Positions 25,241 to 55,770 of a stretch of 64,000 bases of DNA are shown in pieces (positions within the stretch are counted from its first letter, which is position 1; each line of letters starts with the position of its first letter). The DNA is taken from positions 28,308 to 92,307 of the IMG/VR virus record IMGVR_UViG_3300028591_000150. One strand, 5' to 3'. Source of the stretch: a virus. Its lineage: Duplodnaviria; Caudoviricetes. The notes under the pieces are model-generated. The model made no database searches and was not told the DNA's origin. It saw only the letters and a program-made list of their open reading frames with translations. A program made the translations under genes and the position numbers.

Positions 25241-26479
25241 TTAGTTTACTTGCATTGGCATTTGAAGTATCAGGCGACTGCTGTGAGCATCATCAGGGCG
25301 ATATAGCACGGGGCGTCTTGGCTCACTGAGGAACAACACCACGCTCTCAGTCTGTATGCGGTCCAGTATGCCGACTGCTGTGCTAATTTTCAAGCCGATT
25401 GCGAAGCCTTCTGGCAGGAAAGCATCTTGGTCTGTTATCGCTACGCGCTCCTGACCGCTGCGACCATTATCCATATTTGCTGCACATACAATGAAGGCAT
25501 CACCATCGCGCCGCAATTCTACCATATTTGTCTGCTCGTTAGCTGACAGCTGAACGCGGCGCAATGCCATCCGAAATGATTCGCGGTCTGCTGACACACG
25601 GTACTGGCTGTCATTCGGAATGACACTATCGTAGTTTGGATAGTTGCCCTCGATGAGTCTTGCAACAATGCGAGCGCCCTTTGTGCAGAACTCACATCGC
25701 TGTCTGTCTGCAGTAACTGTAATCTGTCCGTCGCTTACGACTGATGACAACGCTTTACGAGCCTTCTTTGTGATTAGCAGTTTCGCAGAACCTGGCTGTT
25801 GTGTTTTGGGATCGAAAGCAGGAAACGTCGCATAATCAAGCCATCCGCTGCCGACGCCAGTCTCTATGACATCCTTGAACAACTCGCGGCCGTTTGTTCC
25901 AACAACAATCAACTTGTCATTATACACATCCAGACAAACACCGTTCAATACCATCCTGAGTTCATCATCTGCACTACTTTCTATGGCTGCGGCCATAAGT
26001 GGCAGTAGTTTGGAGGCATCGAGTGTGAATCGGCATAATGCACCTTCCTTGTCTTTTTCAGCGACAGGCAAAGGCAAAGGGAATGTATCACAGTCTTCCC
26101 AACCCATCTCGAACTCACCGATTCCATAGTTTACCTTCATCAAGTGGTCCGTGGTGAACCATACCTGCAACAGCTGTGCGCTTGGCAGTAGGCTTACAGC
26201 CTCTTTTAGCGCAGAAAAAGAAATGGCCACCTCTTTGAACTTGTCCTTCTGGTCGTCTTCAATCATGCGCATCCATTGCTGTCCGTCACTGTCCACGCAG
26301 TCGAGTGTAATCCATGTCTCGCTGTCCGATGCGGTCATAGTAAACACATCTCGACCTTCGTCATACTTCAACACTACACTTCCCAAAATAGGCAGAGCAT
26401 TCTTGGCGTTAATAACAGGAGCAATTTGTGCGAGCGCTTTTCTCCAATAGTTCACGTCAACCGTTAATTTTGTCTTCAT
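25241..26479 (-). CDS. dnaN: DNA polymerase III beta sliding clamp (phage-encoded)
   Basis: KNALPIL, ASDSE, LRMVLNGV, VGTNGREL, RLIEGNYPNY, C-terminal MPM motifs. Confidence 0.9.
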   Translation of the reverse strand: MKTKLTVDVNYWRKALAQIAPVINAKNALPILGSVVLKYDEGRDVFTMTASDSETWITLDCVDSDGQQWMRMIEDDQKDKFKEVAISFSALKEAVSLLPSAQLLQVWFTTDHLMKVNYGIGEFEMGWEDCDTFPLPLPVAEKDKEGALCRFTLDASKLLPLMAAAIESSADDELRMVLNGVCLDVYNDKLIVVGTNGRELFKDVIETGVGSGWLDYATFPAFDPKTQQPGSAKLLITKKARKALSSVVSDGQITVTADRQRCEFCTKGARIVARLIEGNYPNYDSVIPNDSQYRVSADRESFRMALRRVQLSANEQTNMVELRRDGDAFIVCAANMDNGRSGQERVAITDQDAFLPEGFAIGLKISTAVGILDRIQTESVVLFLSEPRRPVLYRPDDAHSSRLILQMPMQVN

Positions 26480-35072: not shown

Positions 35073-35834
35073 TTATCTGATTGTATCAAACACTTCGCCT
35101 GCGATGTACTCCACCCTGCTGCCGGGCTTCACCTCGGGAAACAGCAGCGGGTTCAGTTCCACTTGGTTCGGGCTGCGGAAGTTGTTGATGTCGCCCCAAT
35201 GCGGATAGGCAAAGTGCAGGAGCAGTTTGCCGTCAACGTCGCGGCTGACGTACAGCTTCGTCTTGTGGTCGGGGTCGTAACGGAACTCGTTGCAGGCATC
35301 GGCCAGCTCGTTGCCGTCGGGACAGAAGCGGCGCAGCATCGCCATCGTCAGCCCCGCCGACATGCCGCTGTGACCTGCATCGTTGAAAATCTTGTAAGCC
35401 TTGCGCAGTCGCCCTATGCGGCTTAGCGTCTCGTCGCGCATCACCCTGGCGCAGTCGAGCACCTGGTCAAGCTCCATGCCACGGTAGAGGTCGCCGAGAC
35501 GGATGGGCACTATCTCGTCCCAATACTCCAGTTCGCCCTCAATGATTACGCCGCGAGCCGCCTTGCGGTAGTGTTCCGTCAGCTCGGGGATGCGTGCCTC
35601 GTGTTCCTCGCGCTGGCGCTTCAGCTCATCGAGCCTCTTCTGCACAAGTGCATCATGCTCCGCTTTCGTCTTGCCCGTCACCTTCATATAGGCTTCGTCC
35701 AAACTATCGCTCGAAAGCAGTTTCTCCCCGTTAAACTCTCCGCAGCAAAGCTCTCCCGATTCATCGGCTTCCTGCTGCAGCATGTGCCACGCTTTCTCTA
35801 CGTTGCACGCTCCGTAAAATGTAATTTGCTTCAT
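35073..35834 (-). CDS. conserved phage hypothetical protein
   Basis: 253 aa; RLGDLYRGMELD..GHSGMS motifs. Confidence 0.7.
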   Translation of the reverse strand: MKQITFYGACNVEKAWHMLQQEADESGELCCGEFNGEKLLSSDSLDEAYMKVTGKTKAEHDALVQKRLDELKRQREEHEARIPELTEHYRKAARGVIIEGELEYWDEIVPIRLGDLYRGMELDQVLDCARVMRDETLSRIGRLRKAYKIFNDAGHSGMSAGLTMAMLRRFCPDGNELADACNEFRYDPDHKTKLYVSRDVDGKLLLHFAYPHWGDINNFRSPNQVELNPLLFPEVKPGSRVEYIAGEVFDTIR

Positions 35835-44704: not shown

Positions 44705-44975
44705 ATTTCCGTCAAACGCGGATAACAGAAATATTGAATATATAGTAAACAAAGGGAAACTGGCAAATATTACGGCATAGTTTCCGGTTCGGTAGCGTCC
44801 GAATTGGGAAACATCAAAAAAAAGAAACAGGAAAAACGCCGATGCGCCCGTAGTTTAATGGATAGAATAAAGGATTCCGGTTCCTTTGATAAGGGTTCGA
44901 TTCCCTTCGGGCGTACTTCACTTTTGGATGTAATTTCCACTTTTGAGCCTGTAAATTTCCGTCAGATTTCCGTCA
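44705..44975. mobile_element. putative attP: ATTTCCGTCA arm-type repeats flanking a tRNA core
   Basis: ATTTCCGTCA at 44705, 44955 and 44966, directly upstream of the integrase. Confidence 0.65.
44844..44915 (+). tRNA. tRNA-Arg(CCG)
   Basis: Acceptor GCGCCCG/CGGGCGT; anticodon arm AAGGA-TTCCGGT-TCCTT; T arm AAGGG-TTCGATT-CCCTT; no encoded CCA. Confidence 0.9.
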
Positions 44976-46182: not shown

Positions 46183-46518
46183 ATGCTCGAATACAATTAC
46201 AACTTCCTACGAGAATGGATAGAACAGACCAGAACTACATATAAGGAAGTGATGCAGGCTGTTGGCAATAGTAGCAGTAGTAATCTACATGACTGGATTG
46301 GCGACGGACCTGCGCAAAAGAGGCAGGCGGATAAGGGAGAGCGAGTACGTCCTGTAGCAATGAACGTGGAGTCAATGATACGTTTCTGTAACCATTTTAA
46401 ATTGCCGATCGGCGTGTTTTTTCTGAAAGATGGCAAACCTCTGTCAGAAACAACCGAAAAGACTTGGCAACAACTCGACATGCGGCTCCGTGTCATAGAG
46501 GAATTATTGAAGATATAG
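46183..46518 (+). CDS. XRE-like HTH protein
   Basis: ATG 1 bp after int stop; MIRFCNHFKLPIGVFF; 3' end overlaps rep. Confidence 0.55.
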   Translation: MLEYNYNFLREWIEQTRTTYKEVMQAVGNSSSSNLHDWIGDGPAQKRQADKGERVRPVAMNVESMIRFCNHFKLPIGVFFLKDGKPLSETTEKTWQQLDMRLRVIEELLKI

Positions 46519-47776
46519 GCTCAGGGCGTTTCGGCACACTATACATCCAAGTGATATTATTGCCAAAGTGCTTCGTGAGCGTTGGCCTTACTAGTTCTCC
46601 AGACACATGCGGCTGCACAATCCATTGGTAGTCCTCGTAGCTATTCATCCGGAGCATAAGTGTATGCGTACTATCTTCCCACGACTCGAATGAAAGCGAT
46701 GATATGACGTGAATGCTGTAATCGCGAGTGCATTTCCCAAGCATATCGGCCTTGCATTGTTCCCAGCGATCAGCTGCTTCTTGCTTGCGAATAATAGTTT
46801 GCTTTGCCATGTCTTTAGCCTCTCCTGTTGCAGGTGTGTCTTTCTTTGTAAGTAGAGAATATCCGATGCCGAGGTCGGTGCTCATAATCGTAAACTCTAT
46901 GAAGTCAGGGTCGCCGCGCCTTCGTCCGTTCAGATAGACAGGCTCATACGAAAATGTGATGTCTGTATGGTTATCACGCGCCATCTGGTCGAGGTCGTCC
47001 TTCACGGCATCCAGCACCTTCGTCTTGAAGTGGGCGAACTTCTGATATGGTACCACCCACTCGCCCGTCGCATCATCCTTGAACGTTTCAAAGCCGAGAA
47101 AGTTCTTAATCTCCTGCACCGTCAGGCGGACGCGGGTGTGCCGCTCCCTACCCATCAGCTCTTGTAACTTGAAGTAGAGCCTTGGTGTGCTCCGCTTCGT
47201 GGCATATCGGGCAATCAGCTTCGGGTGATTGGCGTAGCCTTGACTCATGTCGAAGGCATACTGCGCCACGTCTTTGTTAATCTCCACTTCGATGTAACCG
47301 CTATGCCTCGCAGACTCCACGATAATCTCGCCCTGCTCGTCGCGCTTGCGGTAGTAGTCGCCCGTCCTCGGCACGCGGAACTTGGTGAACACAGGCGAGA
47401 AGATGGTATGTCCCGTCGGCTTGCCGTTCTCATCGAACTCCTGGTGCTCCACAAGCAGGTTCATTTCCTCTATGGCCTTACGCACCACCTTGTAATTGGC
47501 GGGGTCAATGTCCATATCTGCCAGGTTGATGCGGAACGGCGGGATGCCATGCTCCAAAAGATACTTCGTAAAGAGTGCCCTTGGTTTCGCCTCTGTGCTG
47601 TTCAGGTTCAGGTCGAAGAAGTTCTTCACATACTGCTGCAGGTGGTCCGACACCATAAGCATCGTGTCCTGTTGGAACAAAGTTAGCTTCGGCCCGAGCT
47701 TGATGTACGAGAACGGTGTCTTGATCCACACCTCCTGCCGTGCGCACTCCATCAACTGTTGCTTGTTTTCTTCCAT
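46493..47776 (-). CDS. plasmid-type replication initiator (Rep_3/RepB) with C-terminal DnaA_N-like domain
   Basis: PRLY..LTVQEIKNFLG..YQKFAHFKTKVLD..DITFSYE winged-helix pattern. Confidence 0.8.
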   Translation of the reverse strand: MEENKQQLMECARQEVWIKTPFSYIKLGPKLTLFQQDTMLMVSDHLQQYVKNFFDLNLNSTEAKPRALFTKYLLEHGIPPFRINLADMDIDPANYKVVRKAIEEMNLLVEHQEFDENGKPTGHTIFSPVFTKFRVPRTGDYYRKRDEQGEIIVESARHSGYIEVEINKDVAQYAFDMSQGYANHPKLIARYATKRSTPRLYFKLQELMGRERHTRVRLTVQEIKNFLGFETFKDDATGEWVVPYQKFAHFKTKVLDAVKDDLDQMARDNHTDITFSYEPVYLNGRRRGDPDFIEFTIMSTDLGIGYSLLTKKDTPATGEAKDMAKQTIIRKQEAADRWEQCKADMLGKCTRDYSIHVISSLSFESWEDSTHTLMLRMNSYEDYQWIVQPHVSGELVRPTLTKHFGNNITWMYSVPKRPEPISSIIPL

Positions 47777-47952
47777 AACTATTGAAATCTTCAATTCTGT
47801 TGTGCAAAATGCACGATTCTACTATAACATTGTTCACCTCGACACACCGCAAACCCTTTGTTTATCGCATTTTTCGCATTCTGTACTATACTCAACCATA
47901 CCCTTTTTAATTCTCTATATAAAGAGTAATTCTATATATAGTATATAAATAA

Positions 47953-48043
47953 GGTGTCCAAACATATAGTTGTATTCACCTTCTTATATAGTTTGTGGTG
48001 TCGGATATTATAGTTTACCTTTAGGTGTCCATTTATATAGTTT
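47953..48043. repeat. iteron-like repeats (putative plasmid origin)
   Basis: TATAGTT at 47965, 47987, 48009 (22-bp period) and 48036; three copies preceded by GGTGTC; adjacent AT-rich tract. Confidence 0.65.
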
Positions 48044-48494
48044 CGGACACTTCATTGCCCATCAGCAGACGTACTGCGGCTTCTTTTGATATGGGCTGAC
48101 CATAGTAGTGCCACGTCTTCTTATTGCTGTGCATAATGCGATCTGTGATGCGTTCAATGAGCATCCTCCGTTCATCATCTGTAGGCGTGTAGTAGCCCTG
48201 GTATTCGTCCGGCACACCATAGACAAAGTTCTCCTCATAGTCTTTCACATTGAAGTGACGCAAATGACACTCAACATAGATACTTCGATACCGCAGCCTA
48301 CAGAACAGCATCTTGTTCAGGAAGAACTTCACATGTCCATTGCCCAGCACGAACTTATTAGGTATCTGCTTAACACTTCCTGTCCTGATAGCTTCATACA
48401 AGCAGAACGGCAGCCTCTTAATTTCCCGATGCTCTGCAACCAAGTGTTCATCAGTTAGGCATCGTACATGAATGGCACTGTTAATTCTGGTCAT
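48033..48494 (-). CDS. denV: pyrimidine-dimer DNA glycosylase (T4 endonuclease V family)
   Basis: MTRIN..LTDEHLVAEHREI..FVLGNGHVKFF. Confidence 0.88.
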   Translation of the reverse strand: MTRINSAIHVRCLTDEHLVAEHREIKRLPFCLYEAIRTGSVKQIPNKFVLGNGHVKFFLNKMLFCRLRYRSIYVECHLRHFNVKDYEENFVYGVPDEYQGYYTPTDDERRMLIERITDRIMHSNKKTWHYYGQPISKEAAVRLLMGNEVSETI

Positions 48495-48498
48495 AACT

Positions 48499-48813
48499 TT
48501 AACTTTCAATTTTCTTTTTGCCCTCTTGTACGTCTAGCCACATATCTATGGCCTGCGCAACCAATGCAGCTATATTCTCTCCCCTTGTGAGCTTAATATC
48601 GTTCAAACGTCTGTATTGCGACATAGGTATATAGGTCTGTACACCCTTGGTCTGTTCTGTTGGCTTATCAACTATCGGTGGTTCATTTAGAGCATGTTTC
48701 TGCTCTTTTTTCTCGATGGCCTCGTAGCCATTTTCGATTTTTTCCTCTGTCTGCTTAATCAGCGGTGAGTTTCCGAAATTGAAAGGAGCCTTGTGATTGT
48801 TTTCGTTTGCCAT
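48499..48813 (-). CDS. ParA partner, ribbon-helix-helix (type Ib centromere-binding)
   Basis: Unstructured N-terminus plus C-terminal VQTYIP..RL..LVAQAIDMWL; downstream of parA. Confidence 0.65.
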   Translation of the reverse strand: MANENNHKAPFNFGNSPLIKQTEEKIENGYEAIEKKEQKHALNEPPIVDKPTEQTKGVQTYIPMSQYRRLNDIKLTRGENIAALVAQAIDMWLDVQEGKKKIES

Positions 48814-48828
48814 AATATTATTATTTTA

Positions 48829-48860
48829 AGTTATTAAGTAGTTATTAAGTAGTTATTAGG
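48829..48860. repeat. 11-bp tandem repeat AGTTATTAAGT (parS-like)
   Basis: Two exact copies plus a partial third, between parA and partner gene. Confidence 0.55.
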
Positions 48861-49677
48861 TAAATAGTTCCATACATAATTTTTCATAGTCTATACCTGG
48901 CGCAGAGTAGGGCCTGTACTGATAGATGTCCTTTGTCATTGTCTGCGATTCGTTCATCTTCACACTTCGCCTTATCTTTGTCCTGCATACATATCCTTTG
49001 TATGATCGCTCCAAATAATCAATGAATCCGCGAGCTATTTTTGGCCTTGCATCCACCATTGTCGGGAGCAAACCGCGAAGCTGCAGATTTTTGTTTAGTT
49101 CCGACTGAACTTCGCGCATGGCAAGGATAATATTCCCGAGCCCATTAACGCTAAGCCCTTCCATCTGAACAGGCACCAACAAACCAGTAGCAACAGCCAT
49201 AGCGTTGTATGTTGATTGGCTCAATGCGGGTGGGCAGTCTATCAGTACATAATCAAAACTTTCGATGATGTCTGTCAGTCCGATGCCCGTGTGGTCGTCT
49301 AACGGCAGGCAAAAGCACTTCTGTAACACCTTTTTCGGGTTCATCTGTCGGAACAAATCACTATCCACATCCTGCATCTCCATATCTCCTGGGACAAGAT
49401 ATACGCCTTCTCGATTAGTCTTATATACAGGCAAGTTAGTTCCTGTACGCATAGCGCTGTAAATGGTTGGTGTGGTAAAAAAATCATCGGACTGATTCCA
49501 TCCGTGTAGAATACTTAGGTGCATCTGAGGATCGAGGTCTATAACCAAAACACGCCATTCTTGGTGCTCGCGAACCATCGCAGCAGCTAGGTTCTGGACG
49601 GTAGTAGTCTTCCCTACCCCACCTTTGTTATTCACTATTGCCAACACTTCTTTCAGTCTTGTTTTGCTTGTTTCCAT
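48856..49677 (-). CDS. parA: ParA partition ATPase
   Basis: NKGGVGKTTT, IDLDPQ, LIDCPP. Confidence 0.92.
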   Translation of the reverse strand: METSKTRLKEVLAIVNNKGGVGKTTTVQNLAAAMVREHQEWRVLVIDLDPQMHLSILHGWNQSDDFFTTPTIYSAMRTGTNLPVYKTNREGVYLVPGDMEMQDVDSDLFRQMNPKKVLQKCFCLPLDDHTGIGLTDIIESFDYVLIDCPPALSQSTYNAMAVATGLLVPVQMEGLSVNGLGNIILAMREVQSELNKNLQLRGLLPTMVDARPKIARGFIDYLERSYKGYVCRTKIRRSVKMNESQTMTKDIYQYRPYSAPGIDYEKLCMELFT

Positions 49678-49695: not shown

Positions 49696-51021
49696 TTATT
49701 TGATGATTCCTGCCATCACAAGCCCTATAAGTCCAAGTGGAATGAGCAATCCAGTCTGCCAGACAACAACAAGCGCAACTGACATCGCAGCCGCTAGACC
49801 CGCAGCTTTCATTATTTGATGACTATTATCTTTCTGCACGTTGGGTTCTTCTTGATTACTTTGAATGCTCGAATTATCCGGAATGTTTTTCGTTTCAACG
49901 GCAGCGCCATCAACGACACCGTAAATCTTTGGGGTAACATCATTACTCAGACCAACTTCAACAAGACACCCCGCTGTTACGCCCATTTCTGTCATTTTGT
50001 TCTCTGAGTATAATGATACCTGCTTTACTTCCCTGCCCATAATCATCACGGGCTCTAGATAAGCGACAGGTGTGCGCTTGCCTGTTTTGCCTACACTGAT
50101 CTCAATGCGCAGCACACGAGTAACTGTCTTCTTGGCCGAGAATTTATAGGCAATGTTGCCATTCTGGTGATGCTCTGTGCAGCCAAGAGATGCGGCAATC
50201 TGCTTTTGGTCAATCTTGATGACCACACCATCCGTAGGATAAGGCAGCGATTCCCGAAGCTCGCTATATTCGTCAAGCACCTTGCAGATGCCCTCACCGT
50301 CACACGTCCTGACATCACACAAGAACCCCTGCTGCTGTGCGGCCACGATGCTCGCGCTCTCCGTGCCAAACGGCTGATTGTCGCTATCCATCTGCCAGGC
50401 AATAAACACAAGGTGCTTCATGTCGTCCGATGGTACAACTTGATTGGTCAGTGCAGCAGCAGCCGTGCGGCAGTCCTTATAACCCAACCCTTGCAATTCT
50501 TTCTTAGGACAGACAATCTCTCCGCGTACTTCTACGCGACCTGTCATTTTTATTGCCTTCGGTACTGATGGTATTGCCATCACATGAGCAAACAGATCCT
50601 GGCCTTTATATTTGTCACCGCGTGTGGCAGCTGATACAAGTATGCCGTCCTGATAGACAAGGGAGCAGCTGATGCCGTCGTATTTCCATTCCAGTGCATA
50701 CGTTACGCCAATGCCATTCAAAGCCTTATTGACCTTGCTGAGCCACTTCGTTACTGCATCCATAGTTTGAGCTTTCTGACAGCTCAGCATACGTGTGCGA
50801 TGACGAATTAACCTGCGTCCATTATCTTGGAGGTCGCTACCAACAATCTGCGTCGGACTATCGGCAAGCGTCCATTCTGGATGCTCTGCCTCTGCCTGTT
50901 CAATGTCATTCACCATCGCGTCAAACTGTGAATCGCTTACAGTAGGCTGTGCGAGCACATAATACTCGTAACTAAATCTTTTTGCCCTGTCAACGAGTGC
51001 TATATATTCTTTCTGTGTCAT
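49696..51021 (-). CDS. NAD-dependent DNA ligase-like protein, truncated, with C-terminal membrane anchor
   Basis: Domain Ia YY..P.VSD..FD, KYDG, VRGE, DGVVIK, IAYKF and OB fold; no Zn finger, HhH or BRCT; hydrophobic C-terminus. Confidence 0.85.
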   Translation of the reverse strand: MTQKEYIALVDRAKRFSYEYYVLAQPTVSDSQFDAMVNDIEQAEAEHPEWTLADSPTQIVGSDLQDNGRRLIRHRTRMLSCQKAQTMDAVTKWLSKVNKALNGIGVTYALEWKYDGISCSLVYQDGILVSAATRGDKYKGQDLFAHVMAIPSVPKAIKMTGRVEVRGEIVCPKKELQGLGYKDCRTAAAALTNQVVPSDDMKHLVFIAWQMDSDNQPFGTESASIVAAQQQGFLCDVRTCDGEGICKVLDEYSELRESLPYPTDGVVIKIDQKQIAASLGCTEHHQNGNIAYKFSAKKTVTRVLRIEISVGKTGKRTPVAYLEPVMIMGREVKQVSLYSENKMTEMGVTAGCLVEVGLSNDVTPKIYGVVDGAAVETKNIPDNSSIQSNQEEPNVQKDNSHQIMKAAGLAAAMSVALVVVWQTGLLIPLGLIGLVMAGIIK

Positions 51022-51048
51022 AATATATTATATATTTTAAATTATTGG

Positions 51049-51318
51049 TTATGCAAACAGAAACGCCTCAATGATAATTCCGACACCCATCAGCCAAAGA
51101 ACAGCGTCAGTAGTTGCCGGATGATTTTCTATAAATTGTGCAATGTAGTTGATCATGCGCAGCTGATTGCGATAGATACGTGGCATCGACAATGCTCTGA
51201 AAGCATTTAATACACTTTTTTTTACTGATTGCAATGTTCCATTGATGTTTGCATTCATTGTTTCAATCTTGATTGCAATGTTTGTTGCTTGGTTGTCTGC
51301 TTGAATTGTCGCTTTCAT
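51049..51318 (-). CDS. small membrane protein
   Basis: C-terminal AVLWLMGVGIIIEAFLFA. Confidence 0.55.
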   Translation of the reverse strand: MKATIQADNQATNIAIKIETMNANINGTLQSVKKSVLNAFRALSMPRIYRNQLRMINYIAQFIENHPATTDAVLWLMGVGIIIEAFLFA

Positions 51319-51378
51319 AATTGTAATGTTTATTGGTTTCTTGAAATGTTGTTTTATTGTTTGATTGATTTCTTGGTG

Positions 51379-51410
51379 CAAAATTACAACAAATATATTG
51401 TATCACCAAA
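51379..51410 (-). promoter_or_regulatory. sigmaA-type promoter TTTG-N20-TAATTTTG (ligase-par operon)
   Basis: Full consensus. Confidence 0.7.
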
Positions 51411-51526
51411 CAAATTACGCCAAAAATACAATATATACATTAAATTTAACAATATTTTACAACTACAATGTATGTATTTACAATAATTTACAAAAACAAT
51501 ATATATATTTATAAATTCCCGAAAAG

Positions 51527-51558
51527 TTTGGTAGTTTACAAAGAAAGTGCTAAATTTG
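51527..51558 (+). promoter_or_regulatory. sigmaA-type promoter TTTG-N20-TAAATTTG
   Basis: Full consensus upstream of HTH gene. Confidence 0.7.
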
Positions 51559-51588
51559 CAACCGAAAACTTATCAAGATATATATTGT

Positions 51589-51849
51589 ATGCCAGATATA
51601 AAGAAGAAAATCAAGGAACTCGGTTTTACTTCGCAGCAAATCGCCGAGAAGTTAAACATCAGTCAGCAGGCAGTAAGTCAGGCCATCAACGGCAACCCGA
51701 CCTTATCACGCCTCAATGATATTGCAGGAGCTATTGGTATTACTGTATCGGAACTTGTCAGCGATGAACCTCAGACACAAGAAAACGAAGCCGTCTTCAC
51801 AATTCCAAAAGACGTGAAGAAGGTTACAATAAAAATAGAGCAACAATAA
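51589..51849 (+). CDS. XRE HTH regulator
   Basis: QQIAEKLNISQQAVSQAINGNPTLSRL. Confidence 0.85.
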   Translation: MPDIKKKIKELGFTSQQIAEKLNISQQAVSQAINGNPTLSRLNDIAGAIGITVSELVSDEPQTQENEAVFTIPKDVKKVTIKIEQQ

Positions 51850-52091: not shown

Positions 52092-52760
52092 TTAGGGCCA
52101 TTCGCCCAAAGGTCCGTTTGTGTTAGGATTGGGAAAAGCCGGACACCAGTTTGTCACTTCGCCCGTTACAGCATCAACGAAAATAACATCGACAACATTG
52201 CCGATTACCCATTGTGCGTTGCATTTTCTTGGGCCTAGCGGACAGCGTAGCGTCATGCCTTCTGATGGTGGAATAAGTCCGTTGTACTCCTTCAGCCGCT
52301 GCAAAACGTCATCCACATTAAGTTTGATTTCCAGCTCGCCCATATCGCAGTCCTCTATCCAAATGTCCGGTATGGAAGGCGGAATGATTGTGCCCTTCTC
52401 GGCATTTGTCGAGATATACTGGCATTCTGCAGGGTTGAACGTCTGGAAGATGTCAGTCACATCTACGACATTCAGATTGTCAAGCGTTTCGTAGCAGATG
52501 TTTTCATTGAACAACACACGTGTTTCATACCAAGCATACCTTTTCCCTTCGTAGAGGGAGAACATCGTCTGTCGATGCAGCGCCTGGATATGGCTCACGC
52601 CCGCCGTGAAGTCAGGCATTACACCGTCATAGTCGTTACCATTGATTACCATTTGCTCCTGTTGAGCATCCTGCTTATTCTCGGACTTGCAGGAATTACA
52701 GCCCGTGGCCATGATGCTGACTATCGCCAGCAAAAAGCCGAAAAAAAGAAATTTCTTCAT
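52092..52760 (-). CDS. lipoprotein downstream of endolysin
   Basis: Signal peptide, lipobox MATG-C; C-terminal IFVDAVTGEV (PepSY-like). Confidence 0.7.
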   Translation of the reverse strand: MKKFLFFGFLLAIVSIMATGCNSCKSENKQDAQQEQMVINGNDYDGVMPDFTAGVSHIQALHRQTMFSLYEGKRYAWYETRVLFNENICYETLDNLNVVDVTDIFQTFNPAECQYISTNAEKGTIIPPSIPDIWIEDCDMGELEIKLNVDDVLQRLKEYNGLIPPSEGMTLRCPLGPRKCNAQWVIGNVVDVIFVDAVTGEVTNWCPAFPNPNTNGPLGEWP

Positions 52761-52797
52761 GTTGGAAATAATTTAGTTAAACAAATGTGTTTATTTC

Positions 52798-53235
52798 TTA
52801 CCTTTTAAGCAGGTTGTTAATCACCTGCTTTCTGTTCTTGCCGTCAGGACGGAAGCTCACATGAACCCAATAACTGCCTTTCACATTGTGCTCCCAAATA
52901 AGCTGGTCAAAGACACAATGCGCCTTGATCCAGTTGAACCACCGCTTGCCTTTCGCCATGTCGCCGTCAATGCAGAGATCCACAGCCTGCCCAAGCATGT
53001 GCTGCGAGTTGCTCACGCCGCCTACGGCCTTGTTTAGTGCAGAATTTCGGTAGCCTGAGCCAATCTTGATAGGTTCCCCCATCGCATCGCGAAGCGGTTG
53101 CAAAATGTTATTCACAAGTGCGCACAGAGCGCACACCTCTGTAGTACCTGGAACGTTGCGAATGCCCTTTGCCTTCGCCGTTTCACTTGCCAGAAGTTCA
53201 TCCAGCGTGAAATTTTTGGAAATTTGAGTTGCCAT
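52798..53235 (-). CDS. endolysin, peptidase M15 family
   Basis: SGYR..NKAVGG..SQH..GQAVD..WVHVS zinc-peptidase motifs. Confidence 0.88.
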   Translation of the reverse strand: MATQISKNFTLDELLASETAKAKGIRNVPGTTEVCALCALVNNILQPLRDAMGEPIKIGSGYRNSALNKAVGGVSNSQHMLGQAVDLCIDGDMAKGKRWFNWIKAHCVFDQLIWEHNVKGSYWVHVSFRPDGKNRKQVINNLLKR

Positions 53236-53430
53236 AATATAATAAATTAGTTTAGAAAATGTATGAGTGCGCATACAATGGCGATAATTCCGAGGATTGC
53301 GAATACAACAATAAGATATATGATGCAAATGTGTTTAATTTCATTGTCTGTCAGTTTTTTACAATGTTTGGGTTCTAACCAACCATGCGAGTCGTAGTCG
53401 AACAAGTACATATAATATAATTTTTAAAGT

Positions 53431-53748
53431 TCAGTGAGTAATTACTCTGACGCCGTTCACTTCTATTACTAAGTAATCTCTTATTCTTCTTATCTCGCCG
53501 CTGGCGGTAAAGCGCACCATTCGCTGCCTACATTCCAGAAACACCTTCAGGCAGATGGCTTCGCCGCTTATGACTTCTCCTTTGCTAGTGATGGCTCGGA
53601 AGTAGAACGGTTTTTGCCTCCTGTATTTAGCTTTATCAGGCGGATTAAATCCTGTCACTTCGCAGCCAGTACGCGGGTCCTGCCACGTCCATTGCTCCAT
53701 GTAGTTGCGGAGCTGCTGCCACGATATAGTAGGTTGTTGTTTTGGCAT
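53431..53748 (-). CDS. hypothetical protein
   Basis: 105-aa ORF right after late-type promoter. Confidence 0.65.
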   Translation of the reverse strand: MPKQQPTISWQQLRNYMEQWTWQDPRTGCEVTGFNPPDKAKYRRQKPFYFRAITSKGEVISGEAICLKVFLECRQRMVRFTASGEIRRIRDYLVIEVNGVRVITH

Positions 53749-54906: not shown

Positions 54907-55770
54907 TCACTGCTTAATCAGTCTGTACGCTGCCACGTTTGCGCAAGCCTGCTGTGCCAGTCGTGCAAGCGCATCCTTGTCGAGCGTTTCGCCCCTGTCT
55001 ATCGCATCTTGTTTCAGAAGTTGATACTCCTCCTTTTCTGCATCTGTCATTGTATGCTTCGGGAAAGGCATGGGCCGGCGGCTTTCATCCACGTGGTCGA
55101 AGCCGATGCCGCGCTGTTCAGGACGCCGGAAGTACTCCTCCGCATCAAAGTCCTCCTGCCAGTCGTCACGCGGCTGCCAGTCGCCCATCCGTGAGCCGCA
55201 GTCGCGCTGCTCCTTCTTCGGCATAGTGGCTCGCACGAAGTACGCCATGCGGTTCAGTGCCGTAGCCGCTGCCGCGTCGATCATGCGGTCGAAAGGCTGT
55301 CGGATAGTCACCCCTGCCGAGTCCTGATGCTCCTGTGCCCAATACTGCTCGCCATCCACGTCCTGCGGTCCCATCGTGCCCAGCAGTTCCAGATAGGCGT
55401 TCAGTCCTGGCACCTTGGCAATCATGCGGGGCTCGTCCAGTTCCTCGTCGTAGTGTTCGCCGCACAGCTCGCGCATCGTCAGCCCCTTCTTTGCCGCCTC
55501 CTGTGCCGTACCGTAGGCGTTCATCCTTCCCGTCAGCCACTGGCAGCGTTCCTGCTCGTTACGTTCGCTGACCTCCACGCGCTTGTCCTGCGTCTTGAAC
55601 ATACGCAGACGTGCCACGAAGTAAGGCGTGCGCAGCTGCACCACGCACAGCCCCAGGTCGCATCGCTGCATATAGTTGGCGTTAGTCACTAAGAACTCTG
55701 AATGTTCGCTCATGCCGTAGCGCACTGAGTGCAGCTTACACGGCTTCTGTAAAAGTTTCAATGTGTGCAT
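54907..55770 (-). CDS. hypothetical protein
   Basis: 287-aa ORF with AT-rich leader. Confidence 0.7.
   Translation of the reverse strand: MHTLKLLQKPCKLHSVRYGMSEHSEFLVTNANYMQRCDLGLCVVQLRTPYFVARLRMFKTQDKRVEVSERNEQERCQWLTGRMNAYGTAQEAAKKGLTMRELCGEHYDEELDEPRMIAKVPGLNAYLELLGTMGPQDVDGEQYWAQEHQDSAGVTIRQPFDRMIDAAAATALNRMAYFVRATMPKKEQRDCGSRMGDWQPRDDWQEDFDAEEYFRRPEQRGIGFDHVDESRRPMPFPKHTMTDAEKEEYQLLKQDAIDRGETLDKDALARLAQQACANVAAYRLIKQ

What the first reader, a model, noticed from the sequence alone, without database searches (positions are those of the whole stretch)
49696..51318. NAD-dependent ligase core with a membrane anchor in place of its DNA-clamping domains
Seen: domain Ia, the adenylation domain (KYDG) and the OB fold are present. 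Motif VI is degenerate (LSNDVTP versus RAGDVIP). Zn finger, HhH and BRCT are replaced by a polar linker and a ~35-aa hydrophobic tail (AAGLAAAMSVALVVVW..LLIPLGLIGLVMAGII). It is co-oriented between a small membrane protein and parA behind one promoter. Known: LigA needs the Zn/HhH domains for efficient nick sealing but not for self-adenylation. Inference: either a membrane-tethered ligase (e.g. acting on incoming or plasmid-state DNA) or a repurposed NAD-consuming adenylyltransferase, possibly a prophage defence effector.
Basis: partly seen in the sequence, partly recalled or inferred. Interest (0 to 1): 0.7.

Follow-up and report, generated by a model that had tools for sequence, protein, structure and literature searches.

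The report
Membrane-tethered NAD-dependent DNA ligase core
A rumen Prevotella phage carries a DNA-joining enzyme that has lost its DNA-gripping domains and gained a conserved greasy tail that should tie it to the cell membrane, a layout I found described nowhere and shared by more than 130 relatives.

Summary
The ORF at 49696-51021 (-) encodes 441 aa: LigA domains Ia, nucleotidyltransferase and OB, then a disordered spacer (373-399) and a two-helix hydrophobic tail (400-441). No Zn finger, HhH or BRCT domain is detectable anywhere in the 92-kb phage record.

The tail is not read-through or decay. About 130 relatives (42-98% identity) on 40-140 kb viral contigs keep such a tail. In the tail-A group, tail identity is 0.57, against 0.09 for the 36 residues before it. 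Where dS is measurable, tail dN/dS is 0.03-0.2, against about 0.5 for the spacer.

All catalytic and NAD-site residues are invariant. Four LigA DNA-contact arginines are replaced.

Tailed genes lie beside a ParA / RHH-like / Rep3 plasmid-type module. Tail-less and BRCT-bearing relatives do not.

The nearest precedent is the T5-like two-subunit ligase, split at the same OB/Zn border. No partner subunit is found here.

Best reading (confidence about 0.45): an active nick-sealing ligase leashed to the cytoplasmic face of the membrane, serving the phage-plasmid replicon. Neither membrane insertion nor ligase activity was tested. There is no support for a defence role.

First readers of this scan flagged the same layout in two other genomes.

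The parts
49696..51021 (-). Ligase gene, 441 aa plus stop codon. Catalytic Lys113 codon is at 50683-50685.
   Evidence: ORF list. Pfam. PDB LigA alignments. The N-terminal MTQ.EY start is conserved in homologues.
50842..51021 (-). Domain Ia (residues ~1-60), the NAD+-binding helical domain.
   Evidence: Weak Pfam Nlig-Ia hit. Y20, Y21, D30, F33 and D34 are invariant and align to E. coli Y22, H23, D32, Y35 and D36. M. tuberculosis LigA also has F at the Y35 position.
50131..50808 (-). Nucleotidyltransferase (adenylation) domain, residues 72-297, carrying motifs I, III, IV and V.
   Evidence: PF01653, E 1.9e-40. K113, D115, R134, E168, R185, R256, D264, K269 and K293 are invariant. They map to E. 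coli K115, D117, R136, E173, R200, R277, D285, K290 and K314.
49906..50121 (-). OB-fold domain, residues 301-372, with degenerate motif VI (GLSNDVTPK).
   Evidence: PF03120, E 1.7e-17. The L358 column is invariant. AF2 gives pLDDT 83-94 here.
49825..49905 (-). Disordered polar spacer, residues 373-399.
   Evidence: AF2 pLDDT below 50 for residues 373-398. In relatives the spacer is 27-241 aa long, mostly net acidic, and only 0.09 identical. Its dN/dS is about 0.5.
49699..49824 (-). C-terminal hydrophobic helix-turn-helix tail, residues 400-441: the predicted membrane hairpin anchor.
   Evidence: Helices at 400-423 and 427-440. Hydrophobic segments at 403-420 and 423-441. Conserved consensus ..TGLlIPlGLIGL..G.lK. 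K or R lies within the last 5 residues in 130 of 131 tailed proteins.
51049..51318 (-). Small upstream ORF, 89 aa from the ATG at 51318, with one C-terminal hydrophobic helix.
   Evidence: ORF list. A 41%-identical homologue occupies the same position only in L027. No family match.
51319..51546 (.). Divergent A+T-rich control region between the HTH gene and the small ORF / ligase operon.
   Evidence: Sequence read. A 31-nt tandem repeat at 51446-51507 and many inverted repeats. Promoter not verified.
51547..51849 (+). Divergent HTH_3 (Cro/CI-type) regulator.
   Evidence: Pfam HTH_3, E 3.4e-10. The same divergent position is seen in L022 and L027.
48856..49677 (-). ParA-type partition ATPase, 18 nt downstream of the ligase stop codon.
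   Evidence: Pfam AAA_31, E 1.6e-38, and CbiA. The best NCBIfam hits are plasmid partition RepA/ParA. Syntenic in about 20 related loci.
48499..48813 (-). 104-aa protein, a probable ribbon-helix-helix centromere-binding partner of ParA. This is inferred from position and sequence pattern only.
   Evidence: No family hit. Homologues follow ParA in L015, L017, L019, L021, L022, L024 and L027.
48033..48509 (-). DenV-like pyrimidine-dimer glycosylase. Its start overlaps the end of the previous gene.
   Evidence: Pfam Pyr_excise, E 1.3e-6. No homologue detected in any related locus.
47952..48042 (.). Three iteron-like 20-nt direct repeats (AGGTGTCCAnnnATATAGTT) upstream of Rep.
   Evidence: the repeat finder family D1.
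46493..47794 (-). Rep3-type plasmid replication initiator.
   Evidence: Pfam Rep3_C, E 1.6e-5. PHROG replication initiation protein. Syntenic in relatives.
54907..55770 (-). 287-aa protein of unknown function. In most relatives its homologue lies directly between the ligase and ParA.
   Evidence: BLASTP synteny. Alignment A2. No Pfam, PHROG, PADLOC, NCBIfam or PDB match. The AF2 model is poor and gives no fold match.
25241..26479 (-). Phage-encoded DnaN-like sliding clamp, a possible DNA-tethering partner for ligases of this family.
   Evidence: Pfam DNA_pol3_beta domains 1-3. PHROG processivity factor, E 9e-32.

Best explanation
The gene encodes a catalytically intact NAD+-dependent ligase core (LigA domains Ia, nucleotidyltransferase and OB). 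It has lost the Zn-finger, HhH and BRCT domains. In their place, a disordered and fast-evolving spacer joins it to a conserved C-terminal hydrophobic helix-turn-helix of about 36 residues.

That tail most likely inserts as a hairpin into the cytoplasmic membrane, with both ends facing the cytoplasm. The enzyme would then sit in the cytoplasm on a flexible leash. It is the phage's only ligase.

The gene sits at the head of the plasmid-type maintenance block (ParA, RHH-like protein, iterons, Rep3) of a Prevotella integrative phage-plasmid. I propose that it adenylylates itself from NAD+ and seals nicks (lagging-strand or repair nicks) in the element's own DNA close to the membrane. Confinement to the membrane surface would compensate for the lost DNA-encircling domains. 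In some relatives a clamp-binding-like motif in the spacer may add to this.

Shown:
- the domain content;
- intact catalytic and NAD-site residues;
- conservation of the tail and purifying selection on it;
- synteny with ParA/Rep;
- absence of a Zn/HhH/BRCT gene in the record.

Inferred:
- membrane insertion and topology;
- nick-sealing activity;
- co-transcription with the downstream genes;
- the DNA it acts on.
For: Core:
- PF01653 and PF03120 hits.
- 27-35% identity to solved LigA structures up to the end of the OB domain.
- K113, D115, R134, E168, R185, R256, D264, K269 and K293 are invariant, as are the Ia residues Y20, D30, F33 and D34.
- Core dN/dS is 0.02-0.3.

Tail:
- AF2 models two helices.
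- The Kyte-Doolittle mean is 2.1-2.8 over 19 residues in about 130 homologues.
- Consensus TGLlIPlGLIGL..G.lK. Tail identity is 0.57, against 0.09 for the 36 residues before it. K/R ends the tail in 130 of 131 proteins.
- Tail dN/dS is 0.03-0.2, against about 0.5 for the spacer.
- The tail was not found on any protein shorter than 242 aa or longer than 772 aa.

Context:
- The order ligase-(p287)-ParA-(RHH-like)-Rep3 is kept in about 20 loci of 44-70% identity.
- Five tail-less relatives and the one locus with a BRCT form have no ParA/Rep within 7 kb.
- Gene gaps are 27 and 18 nt.
- There is no other ligase and no Zn/HhH/BRCT domain in the 92-kb record.

Host and replicon state:
- In genome bins, relatives occur only on phage-sized contigs of 90-100 kb from Prevotella or Bacteroidaceae.
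- The ends of the contig from isolate Prevotella sp. MGM1 overlap by 53 nt.
- That host keeps its own full-length LigA.

Precedents:
- NT plus OB is the minimal working scaffold in ATP-dependent ligases (PMC7470946).
- The T5-like subunit A has the same domain content and also lacks the R208 and R333 equivalents.
Against: - E. coli LigA needs the HhH domain for nick sealing (established knowledge from the Shuman laboratory, recalled here and not re-read).
- The only characterised phage enzyme with this core, the T5-like/PR1 ligase, keeps Zn/HhH/BRCT as a second subunit. A lone core may therefore be a poor ligase.
- Motif VI has lost its basic residue: E. coli R379 corresponds to the invariant L358. 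The R208, R308 and R333 equivalents are N193, N287 and K312.
- ParA-type partition uses the nucleoid rather than the membrane, so nothing here shows that the replicon is membrane-bound.
- The clamp-binding-like motif is absent from this window's own spacer.
- The shared promoter is unverified.
- No experiment exists. Membrane insertion rests on hydrophobicity and a model.
Confidence: 0.45

Rival explanations
1. It is an entry-site or establishment ligase. The same active, membrane-leashed enzyme acts on DNA at the point where phage genomes cross the membrane. It would seal cohesive ends or virion nicks of the incoming genome so that the plasmid state can be set up. Alternatively, in a lysogen, it would act on superinfecting DNA.
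For: - The leash keeps the enzyme within tens of nanometres of the membrane.
- The gene sits with establishment and maintenance genes: Rep3, ParA and integrase.
- T5-like phages pair a split NAD+ ligase with site-specific virion nicks (PDB title).
Against: - The ligase must be made from DNA that is already inside the cell.
- It does not lie in the proposed first-entry segment, being 10-14 kb from the contig end.
- No nicks or cohesive ends are known for this phage.
- Nothing separates this reading from the main one except timing and target.
Confidence: 0.15
2. It is a repurposed adenylyltransferase or a conflict effector. The core no longer joins DNA. Instead it senses or modifies something (broken DNA ends, NAD+ level, another 5'-phosphate substrate), and the two-helix tail perturbs the membrane. 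This would give abortive infection or exclusion from the resident prophage.
For: - Several LigA DNA-contact arginines are lost, while the adenylylation residues are kept.
- Two-helix membrane modules serve as effectors in many defence systems, and ParA-linked immune systems exist (bioRxiv 10.64898/2026.10.19.760177).
- The gene is probably expressed with lysogeny and maintenance genes (inference).
Against: - There is no PADLOC match for the ligase or its neighbours beyond weak P-loop hits.
- The ParA paper does not mention ligases.
- The ParA here is followed by an RHH-like gene, iterons and Rep3, which is a standard partition/replication layout.
- It is the phage's only ligase.
- Tail-less relatives keep the same invariant core, so the core has a function of its own.
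- T5-like subunit A, part of a real ligase, also lacks the R208 and R333 equivalents.
Confidence: 0.12
3. The hydrophobic tail is not a membrane anchor. It is instead a buried interaction or oligomerisation element, for example one that docks into a partner protein.
For: - Each helix has only 14-18 hydrophobic residues, short for a full membrane span.
- The conserved Pro and Gly pattern (IPlGLIGL) could be a packing motif.
Against: - Thirty-five consecutive residues with a Kyte-Doolittle mean of 2.1-2.8 and basic residues at both ends are typical of membrane segments.
- Four sequence types of tail share hydrophobicity and layout rather than sequence. That fits a lipid environment better than a specific protein pocket.
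- No conserved partner gene accompanies all tail types.
Confidence: 0.05
4. The tail is a decaying gene or a chance read-through into hydrophobic sequence.
For: None beyond the unusual architecture.
Against: - The tail is conserved in about 130 sequences.
- Tail dN/dS is 0.03-0.2.
- The only apparently truncated member, P0106, lies on a 1.6-kb contig.
Confidence: 0.01

Closest known systems
Bacterial replicative NAD+-dependent DNA ligase LigA (E. coli 2OWO, T. filiformis 1V9P)
   Same: - Domains Ia, nucleotidyltransferase and OB, in the same order.
- 27-35% identity.
- All adenylylation and NAD-site residues are kept.
   Different: - No Zn finger, HhH or BRCT.
- The motif VI arginine is replaced by an invariant Leu, and the R208, R308 and R333 equivalents are changed.
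- It scores 282 bits against the equivalog cut-off of 444.
- It has an added disordered spacer and a hydrophobic C-terminal hairpin.
Two-subunit NAD+ ligase of T5-like phages (PDB 9HU3/9I5I, PR1 phage heterodimeric DNA ligase; Klebsiella phage Sugarland subunits A and B)
   Same: - The catalytic polypeptide ends at exactly the same border, just after the OB fold.
- It is encoded by a phage.
- It also lacks the E. coli R208 and R333 equivalents.
   Different: - T5-like phages encode a subunit B next door that carries Zn finger, HhH and BRCT. No such gene is detectable in this 92-kb phage.
- Identity is only 26%.
- The T5-like subunit A has no spacer or hydrophobic tail and keeps the motif VI arginine.
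Minimal ATP-dependent ligases (Chlorella virus ligase; periplasmic Lig E)
   Same: - They work with NT and OB domains alone.
- Lig E shows that a pared-down ligase can be sent to an unusual cell compartment by a targeting sequence (PMC7470946).
   Different: - They are ATP-dependent and have no Ia domain.
- Lig E uses an N-terminal signal peptide and is exported. Here there is no signal peptide, and the enzyme should stay in the cytoplasm, where NAD+ is available.
Membrane-anchored organisers of phage DNA replication (phi29 p16.7 and p1; recalled from the literature, not checked here)
   Same: A phage protein acting on DNA and fixed to the membrane by a hydrophobic segment, which places replication at the membrane.
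   Different: - Those proteins are non-enzymatic DNA or terminal-protein binders with N-terminal anchors.
- There is no homology to this ligase.
- Here the anchored protein is an enzyme, and membrane-bound replication is only inferred.

Membership tests
Bacterial LigA (NCBIfam TIGR00575 / NF005932 equivalog) | Domain Ia with NAD+-site residues (E. coli Y22, D32, Y35, D36) | tested here: met
   Y20, D30, F33 and D34 are invariant. M. tuberculosis LigA also has F at the Y35 position. The Pfam Nlig-Ia hit alone is below its cut-off, 17 bits against 27.
Bacterial LigA (NCBIfam TIGR00575 / NF005932 equivalog) | Nucleotidyltransferase motifs I (KxDG), III, IV and V | tested here: met
   K113-x-D115-G116, E164/E168, D264-G-V-V-I-K269 and K293 are all invariant. 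PF01653, E 1.9e-40.
Bacterial LigA (NCBIfam TIGR00575 / NF005932 equivalog) | OB fold with basic motif VI (R/K-x-G-D-V-I-P) | tested here: inconclusive
   The OB fold is present (PF03120, 63 bits). The motif VI basic residue is an invariant Leu, in GLSNDVTPK.
Bacterial LigA (NCBIfam TIGR00575 / NF005932 equivalog) | C4 zinc finger, four HhH motifs and a BRCT domain after the OB fold | tested here: not met
   Nothing follows residue 372 except the spacer and tail. The whole record has no HHH_2, HHH_5, ZBD or BRCT match at E <= 1.
Bacterial LigA (NCBIfam TIGR00575 / NF005932 equivalog) | Score at or above the curated equivalog cut-off | tested here: not met
   282 bits against 444 for TIGR00575, and 272 against 369 for NF005932. 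Only model positions 5-380 of 652 are matched.
T5-like two-subunit NAD+ ligase | Catalytic subunit that ends right after the OB fold | tested here: met
   The LigA-like part ends at residue ~372. Sugarland subunit A (320 aa) has aden and OB domains only. Foldseek hits to 9HU3_A and 9I5I_A have E about 1e-23.
T5-like two-subunit NAD+ ligase | Separate subunit B (Zn finger + HhH + BRCT) encoded in the same genome, usually adjacent | tested here: not met
   Sugarland subunit B shows BRCT, HHH_2 and ZBD. The 92-kb record has none. The conserved neighbour p287 shows no such fold, but its model is poor.
C-terminally anchored (hairpin or tail-anchored) membrane proteins | Strongly hydrophobic segment at the extreme C-terminus, no N-terminal signal peptide, basic residues flanking the segment | tested here: met
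   Segments at 403-420 and 423-441. The N-terminus MTQKEYIALVDRAKRF is polar. K405 lies before the tail and K441 ends it. K/R ends the tail in 130 of 131 proteins.
C-terminally anchored (hairpin or tail-anchored) membrane proteins | Demonstrated insertion into the membrane and its topology | not testable with these tools
   This needs fractionation and reporter fusions. No dedicated TM-topology predictor was available. Only Kyte-Doolittle scans and AF2 were used.
Known anti-phage defence systems (PADLOC-DB 2.0) | Match of the protein or its neighbours to a defence-system model | tested here: not met
   No hit for the ligase, small ORF, RHH-like protein, DenV-like protein, p287 or Rep. ParA gives only weak P-loop hits, E about 2e-4.
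Plasmid-type partition/replication module | ParA ATPase plus a small DNA-binding partner plus an iteron-type Rep initiator in one block | tested here: met
   ParA, Rep3_C and three 20-nt iteron-like repeats. The RHH fold of the 104-aa protein is inferred and has no family hit. The order is conserved in relatives.

The most novel reading that the evidence does not exclude
The ligase core has become a sensor or enzyme module of a prophage conflict system. It would detect nicked or broken invading DNA, or consume NAD+, at the membrane. Its conserved two-helix tail would then perturb the membrane, giving exclusion or abortive infection that protects the resident phage-plasmid. This would be a first case of a DNA-ligase fold used as an immune effector.
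Probability: 0.08. Interest if true: 0.85.

Novelty: new variant of a known kind. Interest (0 to 1): 0.62.

Why it matters
DNA ligases are regarded as soluble enzymes that find nicks by encircling DNA. This family is large, conserved and under selection, and it replaces the encircling domains with a membrane leash. I found no description of that layout:
- two full-text searches found nothing relevant;
- a survey of viral NAD+ systems never mentions transmembrane ligases;
- public records call these proteins 'hypothetical protein' or plain 'NAD-dependent DNA ligase'.

If the enzyme is active, it would show that confinement to a surface can stand in for a DNA clamp. It would also give a handle on an old, poorly tested idea: that plasmid and phage replicons work at the membrane.

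It marks a group of ~90-kb Prevotella phage-plasmids from rumen and gut. One of them sits in a cultured isolate, Prevotella sp. MGM1, so the questions are experimentally reachable.

The soluble core, about 370 aa, could also be of interest as a compact NAD+-dependent ligase.

Tried and rejected
1. A single-sequence scan of IMG/VR found nothing. The alignment-based scan did work.
Contexts therefore come from IMG/VR and GTDB loci only.
3. GenBank phages and PLSDB plasmids hold no relative above 35% identity. The 'plasmid' hits in Bacteroides and Parabacteroides are full-length housekeeping ligA genes among chromosomal genes.
4. p287 as a hidden DNA-clamping subunit: no match in Pfam, PHROG, PADLOC, NCBIfam or PDB. 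The AF2 model has pLDDT 58 and Foldseek finds nothing. This remains unresolved, not excluded.
5. Upstream neighbours in relatives have no family matches.
6. The small upstream membrane protein was rejected as an obligate partner. It occurs only in L027.
7. DenV plus ligase as a repair pair was rejected, because DenV is found only in this phage.
8. The tail searched on other proteins gave nothing among proteins shorter than 242 aa or longer than 772 aa. The ESM Atlas search on the tail returned only generic helices.
9. Promoter evidence is lacking. The sigma-70 scan is at chance level, and a Bacteroidota -33/-7 pattern was not enriched.
10. dN/dS for this window's own tail type could not be measured, because dS is saturated against L022 and L027. 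The estimates come from type-D relatives.
11. Literature on PDB 9HU3 was not found.
12. The ParA-immunity preprint does not mention ligases.
13. Rfam finds only the tRNA at 44844-44915.
Full report
**What is there**

The window is the right-hand 64 kb of a 92,307-bp IMG/VR virus record rated 94% complete. The ORF at 49696-51021 on the minus strand encodes 441 residues.

Pfam finds the NAD-dependent ligase adenylation domain at residues 72-297 (E 1.9e-40) and the ligase OB fold at 301-372 (E 1.7e-17). The N-terminal Ia domain gives only a sub-threshold hit. The protein aligns to solved LigA structures (T. filiformis 1V9P, E 7e-54; E. coli 2OWO, E 2e-42), but only up to LigA residue ~392, where the zinc finger would begin.

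NCBIfam's LigA equivalog models match only their first ~380 of 652 positions. The score, 282 bits, is below the cut-off of 444.

An AlphaFold2 model built on a 29-sequence alignment has mean pLDDT 81. It shows a confident core, a disordered stretch at 373-398 and two helices at 400-423 and 427-440. Hydrophobicity scans mark 403-420 and 423-441.

**Is the core still an enzyme?**

I mapped the protein onto E. coli LigA through the alignment.
- Every residue of the adenylylation chemistry is present: K113 (K115), D115 (D117), R134 (R136), E168 (E173), R185 (R200), R256 (R277), D264 (D285), K269 (K290) and K293 (K314). All are invariant across 29 diverse family members.
- The Ia residues that bind the nicotinamide half of NAD+ are also invariant: Y20, Y21, D30, F33 and D34. 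The Tyr-to-Phe change at E. coli position 35 also occurs in M. tuberculosis LigA.
- Four arginines listed as DNA contacts in the E. coli enzyme are not kept. This list is recalled from Shuman-laboratory work and was not re-read. R208 corresponds to N193. R308 corresponds to N287, which is Lys in most relatives. R333 corresponds to the variable K312. R379 of motif VI corresponds to the invariant L358.
- The subunit A of T5-like phage ligases also lacks the R208 and R333 equivalents. Only the motif VI change is therefore peculiar to this family.
- Core dN/dS among relatives is 0.02-0.3.

I conclude that NAD+-dependent self-adenylylation is very likely. Nick sealing is plausible but unproven.

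**Is the tail real?**

A search of 5.8 billion proteins gave 766 hits. The best 120 share 54-98% identity.
- Of those 120, 108 carry a strongly hydrophobic C-terminal stretch of 33-40 residues ending in Lys or Arg.
- IMG/VR added 26 family loci on viral contigs of 5-140 kb.
- I sorted the tails into four sequence types, A to D.
- Within type A, which includes this window, the consensus is ..TGLlIPlGLIGL..G.lK. Mean pairwise identity of the last 36 residues is 0.57. It is 0.09 for the 36 residues before them and 0.86 for a segment of domain Ia.
- The spacer ranges from 27 to 241 residues, with a median of 107, and is usually net acidic.
- Where synonymous divergence is measurable (type-D relatives), the tail is under purifying selection. 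L013 against L014 shows 1 non-synonymous and 10 synonymous changes, giving omega 0.03. L025 against L033 shows 0 and 8. L015 against L020 gives omega 0.20.
- The spacer sits near omega 0.5.
- The same comparison shows mosaicism. L013 and L025 differ by dS 1.15 in the core but only 0.38 in the tail.
- On a core tree the tail types are intermixed. Tails and spacers are therefore exchanged by recombination.
- The tail was not found on any protein outside the 242-772 aa range.

**Topology (inference)**

- There is no N-terminal signal sequence.
- The hydrophobic stretch is nearly twice the length of one membrane span.
- It is broken in the middle: Q-T-G here, F-F-G or a Gly in other types.
- Basic residues lie on both sides, with K/R at the end in 130 of 131 tails.

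This fits a helical hairpin with both ends in the cytoplasm and the enzyme on a disordered leash. Each helix has only 14-18 hydrophobic residues. A shallow or re-entrant hairpin is therefore as likely as two full spans. I had no dedicated topology predictor.

**Context**

Downstream, with gaps of 18 and 42 nt and one 11-nt overlap, lie the following:
- a ParA ATPase, whose best NCBIfam matches are plasmid partition proteins;
- a 104-aa protein that I read as a ribbon-helix-helix partner;
- a DenV-like glycosylase;
- three iteron-like repeats;
- a Rep3-type initiator;
- then, on the other strand, an integrase and a tRNA.

Upstream lie an 89-aa ORF with one C-terminal hydrophobic helix and a repeat-rich divergent region shared with an HTH_3 regulator.

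The order ligase-(p287)-ParA-(RHH-like)-Rep3 recurs in about 20 related loci whose ligases are only 44-70% identical to this one. The genes upstream of the ligase change. By contrast, the five tail-less loci (L004, L005, L008, L011, L023) and the one locus with a BRCT form (L003) have no ParA or Rep within 7 kb. Some of these lie next to ~1700-aa methylase-SNF2 helicase proteins, a PcfJ-like protein or DUF4942. Many of the tailed loci are close kin, so I count this as perhaps three independent lineages, not twenty.

The small upstream membrane protein recurs only in the nearest relative, L027. It is not a general partner.

Elsewhere the phage encodes a replication initiator, a DnaC-like loader and a DnaN-like clamp, but no recognisable polymerase and no other ligase.

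**Host and replicon state**

In one-genome-per-species bins, the family appears only on phage-sized contigs. These measure 93,576, 100,592, 90,283 and 95,594 bp and come from Prevotellaceae, Prevotella and Bacteroidaceae.
- One of them is contig 204 of the cultured isolate Prevotella sp. MGM1.
- Its two ends overlap by 53 nt at 96% identity.
- The same protein recurs on contigs of 90.1-91.0 kb in other samples.
- That isolate also has its own full-length LigA.

It is not proof.

**The closest precedent**

Foldseek lists PDB 9HU3 and 9I5I, titled 'PR1 phage heterodimeric DNA ligase in complex with 21-mer nicked DNA'. In the T5-like Klebsiella phage Sugarland, 'subunit A' (320 aa) holds the adenylation and OB domains. 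The neighbouring 'subunit B' (249 aa) holds the zinc finger, HhH and BRCT.

Nature has therefore split LigA at exactly the border where this protein ends, while keeping the clamping half in trans.

I searched the whole 92-kb record for HHH_2, HHH_5, the ligase zinc finger and BRCT at E <= 1 and found nothing, with positive controls in 13-14 of 14 reference genomes. The conserved neighbour p287 was my best candidate for a hidden partner. It has no sequence or fold match, and its model is poor. That question stays open.

Within the family, some members have BRCT directly after the OB fold. One, P0110, has BRCT plus a different hydrophobic tail. This suggests stepwise replacement.

**A lead from the spacers**

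- Six of 103 distinct spacers contain Q-L-[S/E/D]-L-F. Shuffling predicts 0.05.
- This matches the bacterial beta-clamp-binding pentapeptide QL(S/D)LF, and E. coli ligase is reported to contact the clamp (PMC9690074).
- Type-D spacers carry a conserved W-[L/I]-A-P-S-[L/F]-F after a run of Glu. Another clade has E-P-I-F-E-T-E-E.
- The phage has its own clamp.
- This window's own 27-residue spacer has no such motif. I report the motif as a property of relatives, not of this gene.

**Mechanism and rivals**

My best account (0.45) is an active NAD+-dependent nick-sealing enzyme, held at the cytoplasmic face of the membrane, that belongs functionally to the plasmid-type replication/partition block. 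Surface confinement would replace the lost clamp.

My rough component probabilities:

| Component | Probability |
|---|---|
| Membrane-anchored | 0.85 |
| NAD+-dependent adenylyltransferase | 0.8 |
| Seals DNA nicks | 0.6 |
| Serves the element's own replication or maintenance near the membrane | 0.4 |

Rivals:
- The same enzyme acts at the DNA entry site, for establishment or exclusion (0.15).
- It is a repurposed adenylyltransferase or a conflict effector using the two-helix tail (0.12). This is weakened by the lack of any PADLOC match and by the ordinary partition context.
- The tail is a protein-protein element rather than an anchor (0.05).
- The gene is decaying (0.01, refuted).

The main weaknesses of my account:
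- LigA without HhH is a poor ligase.
- ParA systems use the nucleoid, not the membrane.
- Nothing here has been tested at the bench.

**Novelty**

- Full-text searches for membrane-anchored or transmembrane NAD+ ligases returned nothing relevant.
- A 2022 survey of viral NAD+ systems discusses viral ligases and solo Ia domains but never uses the word transmembrane.
- A 2020 review of ligase architectures lists no such form.
- Public records name these proteins 'hypothetical protein' (WP_104369795.1) or 'NAD-dependent DNA ligase'.
- First readers of this scan flagged the same layout in two other genomes, without follow-up.

I class it as a new variant of a known kind: a well-known enzyme in an undescribed, conserved architecture and cellular placement.

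Noticed in passing
Relatives: P0037, P0040, P0044, P0047, P0056, P0091; L006, L015-L021, L024 (spacer regions): The spacers of several related ligases carry short 'LF plus acidic' motifs. These are QLSLF, QLELF and QLDLF (6 of 103 spacers, against 0.05 expected on shuffling), W[LI]APS[LF]F after an EEEE run, and EPIFETEE. They resemble the beta-clamp-binding pentapeptide. This window's own spacer has none.
   Followed up: partly
window 54907-55770 (-); L006-L033 at about 8.4-9.6 kb: A conserved protein family of about 275-290 aa with no known domain. It sits directly between the ligase and ParA in most relatives, but 4 kb away in this phage. The AF2 model is poor (pLDDT 58) and gives no fold match.
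   Followed up: partly
L004 10101-15152; L008 1043-6202; L023 653-5851; L004 2219-3541 and 8636-10051; L003 9475-11190: Tail-less and BRCT-bearing relatives of the ligase lie next to Eco57I-type methylase plus SNF2 helicase proteins of about 1700 aa, a PcfJ-like protein, an LPD29+DnaJ protein or DUF4942. This is the 'polyvalent protein' type of neighbourhood seen in phages and conjugative elements.
   Followed up: partly
L013, L014, L025, L033 ligase genes: The genes are mosaic. Core dS is about 1.1 between L013 and L025, while their spacer and tail differ by dS 0.4-0.5. On the core tree the tail types are intermixed. The spacer-tail module is therefore exchanged by recombination.
   Followed up: partly
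window 25241-26479 (-): A phage-encoded DnaN-like sliding clamp of 412 aa, longer than usual. Its residues 161-292 also hit a PHROG annotated as a RusA-like resolvase (E 8e-8). This may be an insertion or a mislabelled PHROG.
   Followed up: no
window 48033-48509 (-): A T4 endonuclease V-like pyrimidine-dimer glycosylase in a phage from the dark, anaerobic rumen. It overlaps the end of the RHH-like gene by 11 nt and has no detectable homologue in any related locus.
   Followed up: no
window 47952-48042 and 51446-51507: Three iteron-like 20-nt repeats (AGGTGTCCAnnnATATAGTT) lie upstream of Rep. A 31-nt tandem repeat and many short inverted repeats lie in the divergent HTH/ligase control region and are probably operators.
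   Followed up: partly
window 52092-53748 (-): A probable lysis block just beyond the HTH gene. It comprises a 105-aa protein, a 54-aa protein with one hydrophobic helix (holin-like), an M15-type endolysin (PHROG 894, E 8e-37) and a 222-aa protein with a lipoprotein-type signal (..IMATG|C).
   Followed up: no
window 35073-35834 (-): A weak, sub-threshold Pfam hit to Tad3, a Thoeris inhibitor (E 4.6e-4; 20 bits against a cut-off of 27).
   Followed up: no
G001 contig 204 (L130, L131): In the isolate Prevotella sp. MGM1 the related 90,283-bp element is a separate contig. Its first 53 nt repeat at its end (96% identity) within a short-repeat array. This fits a circular or terminally redundant replicon.
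   Followed up: partly
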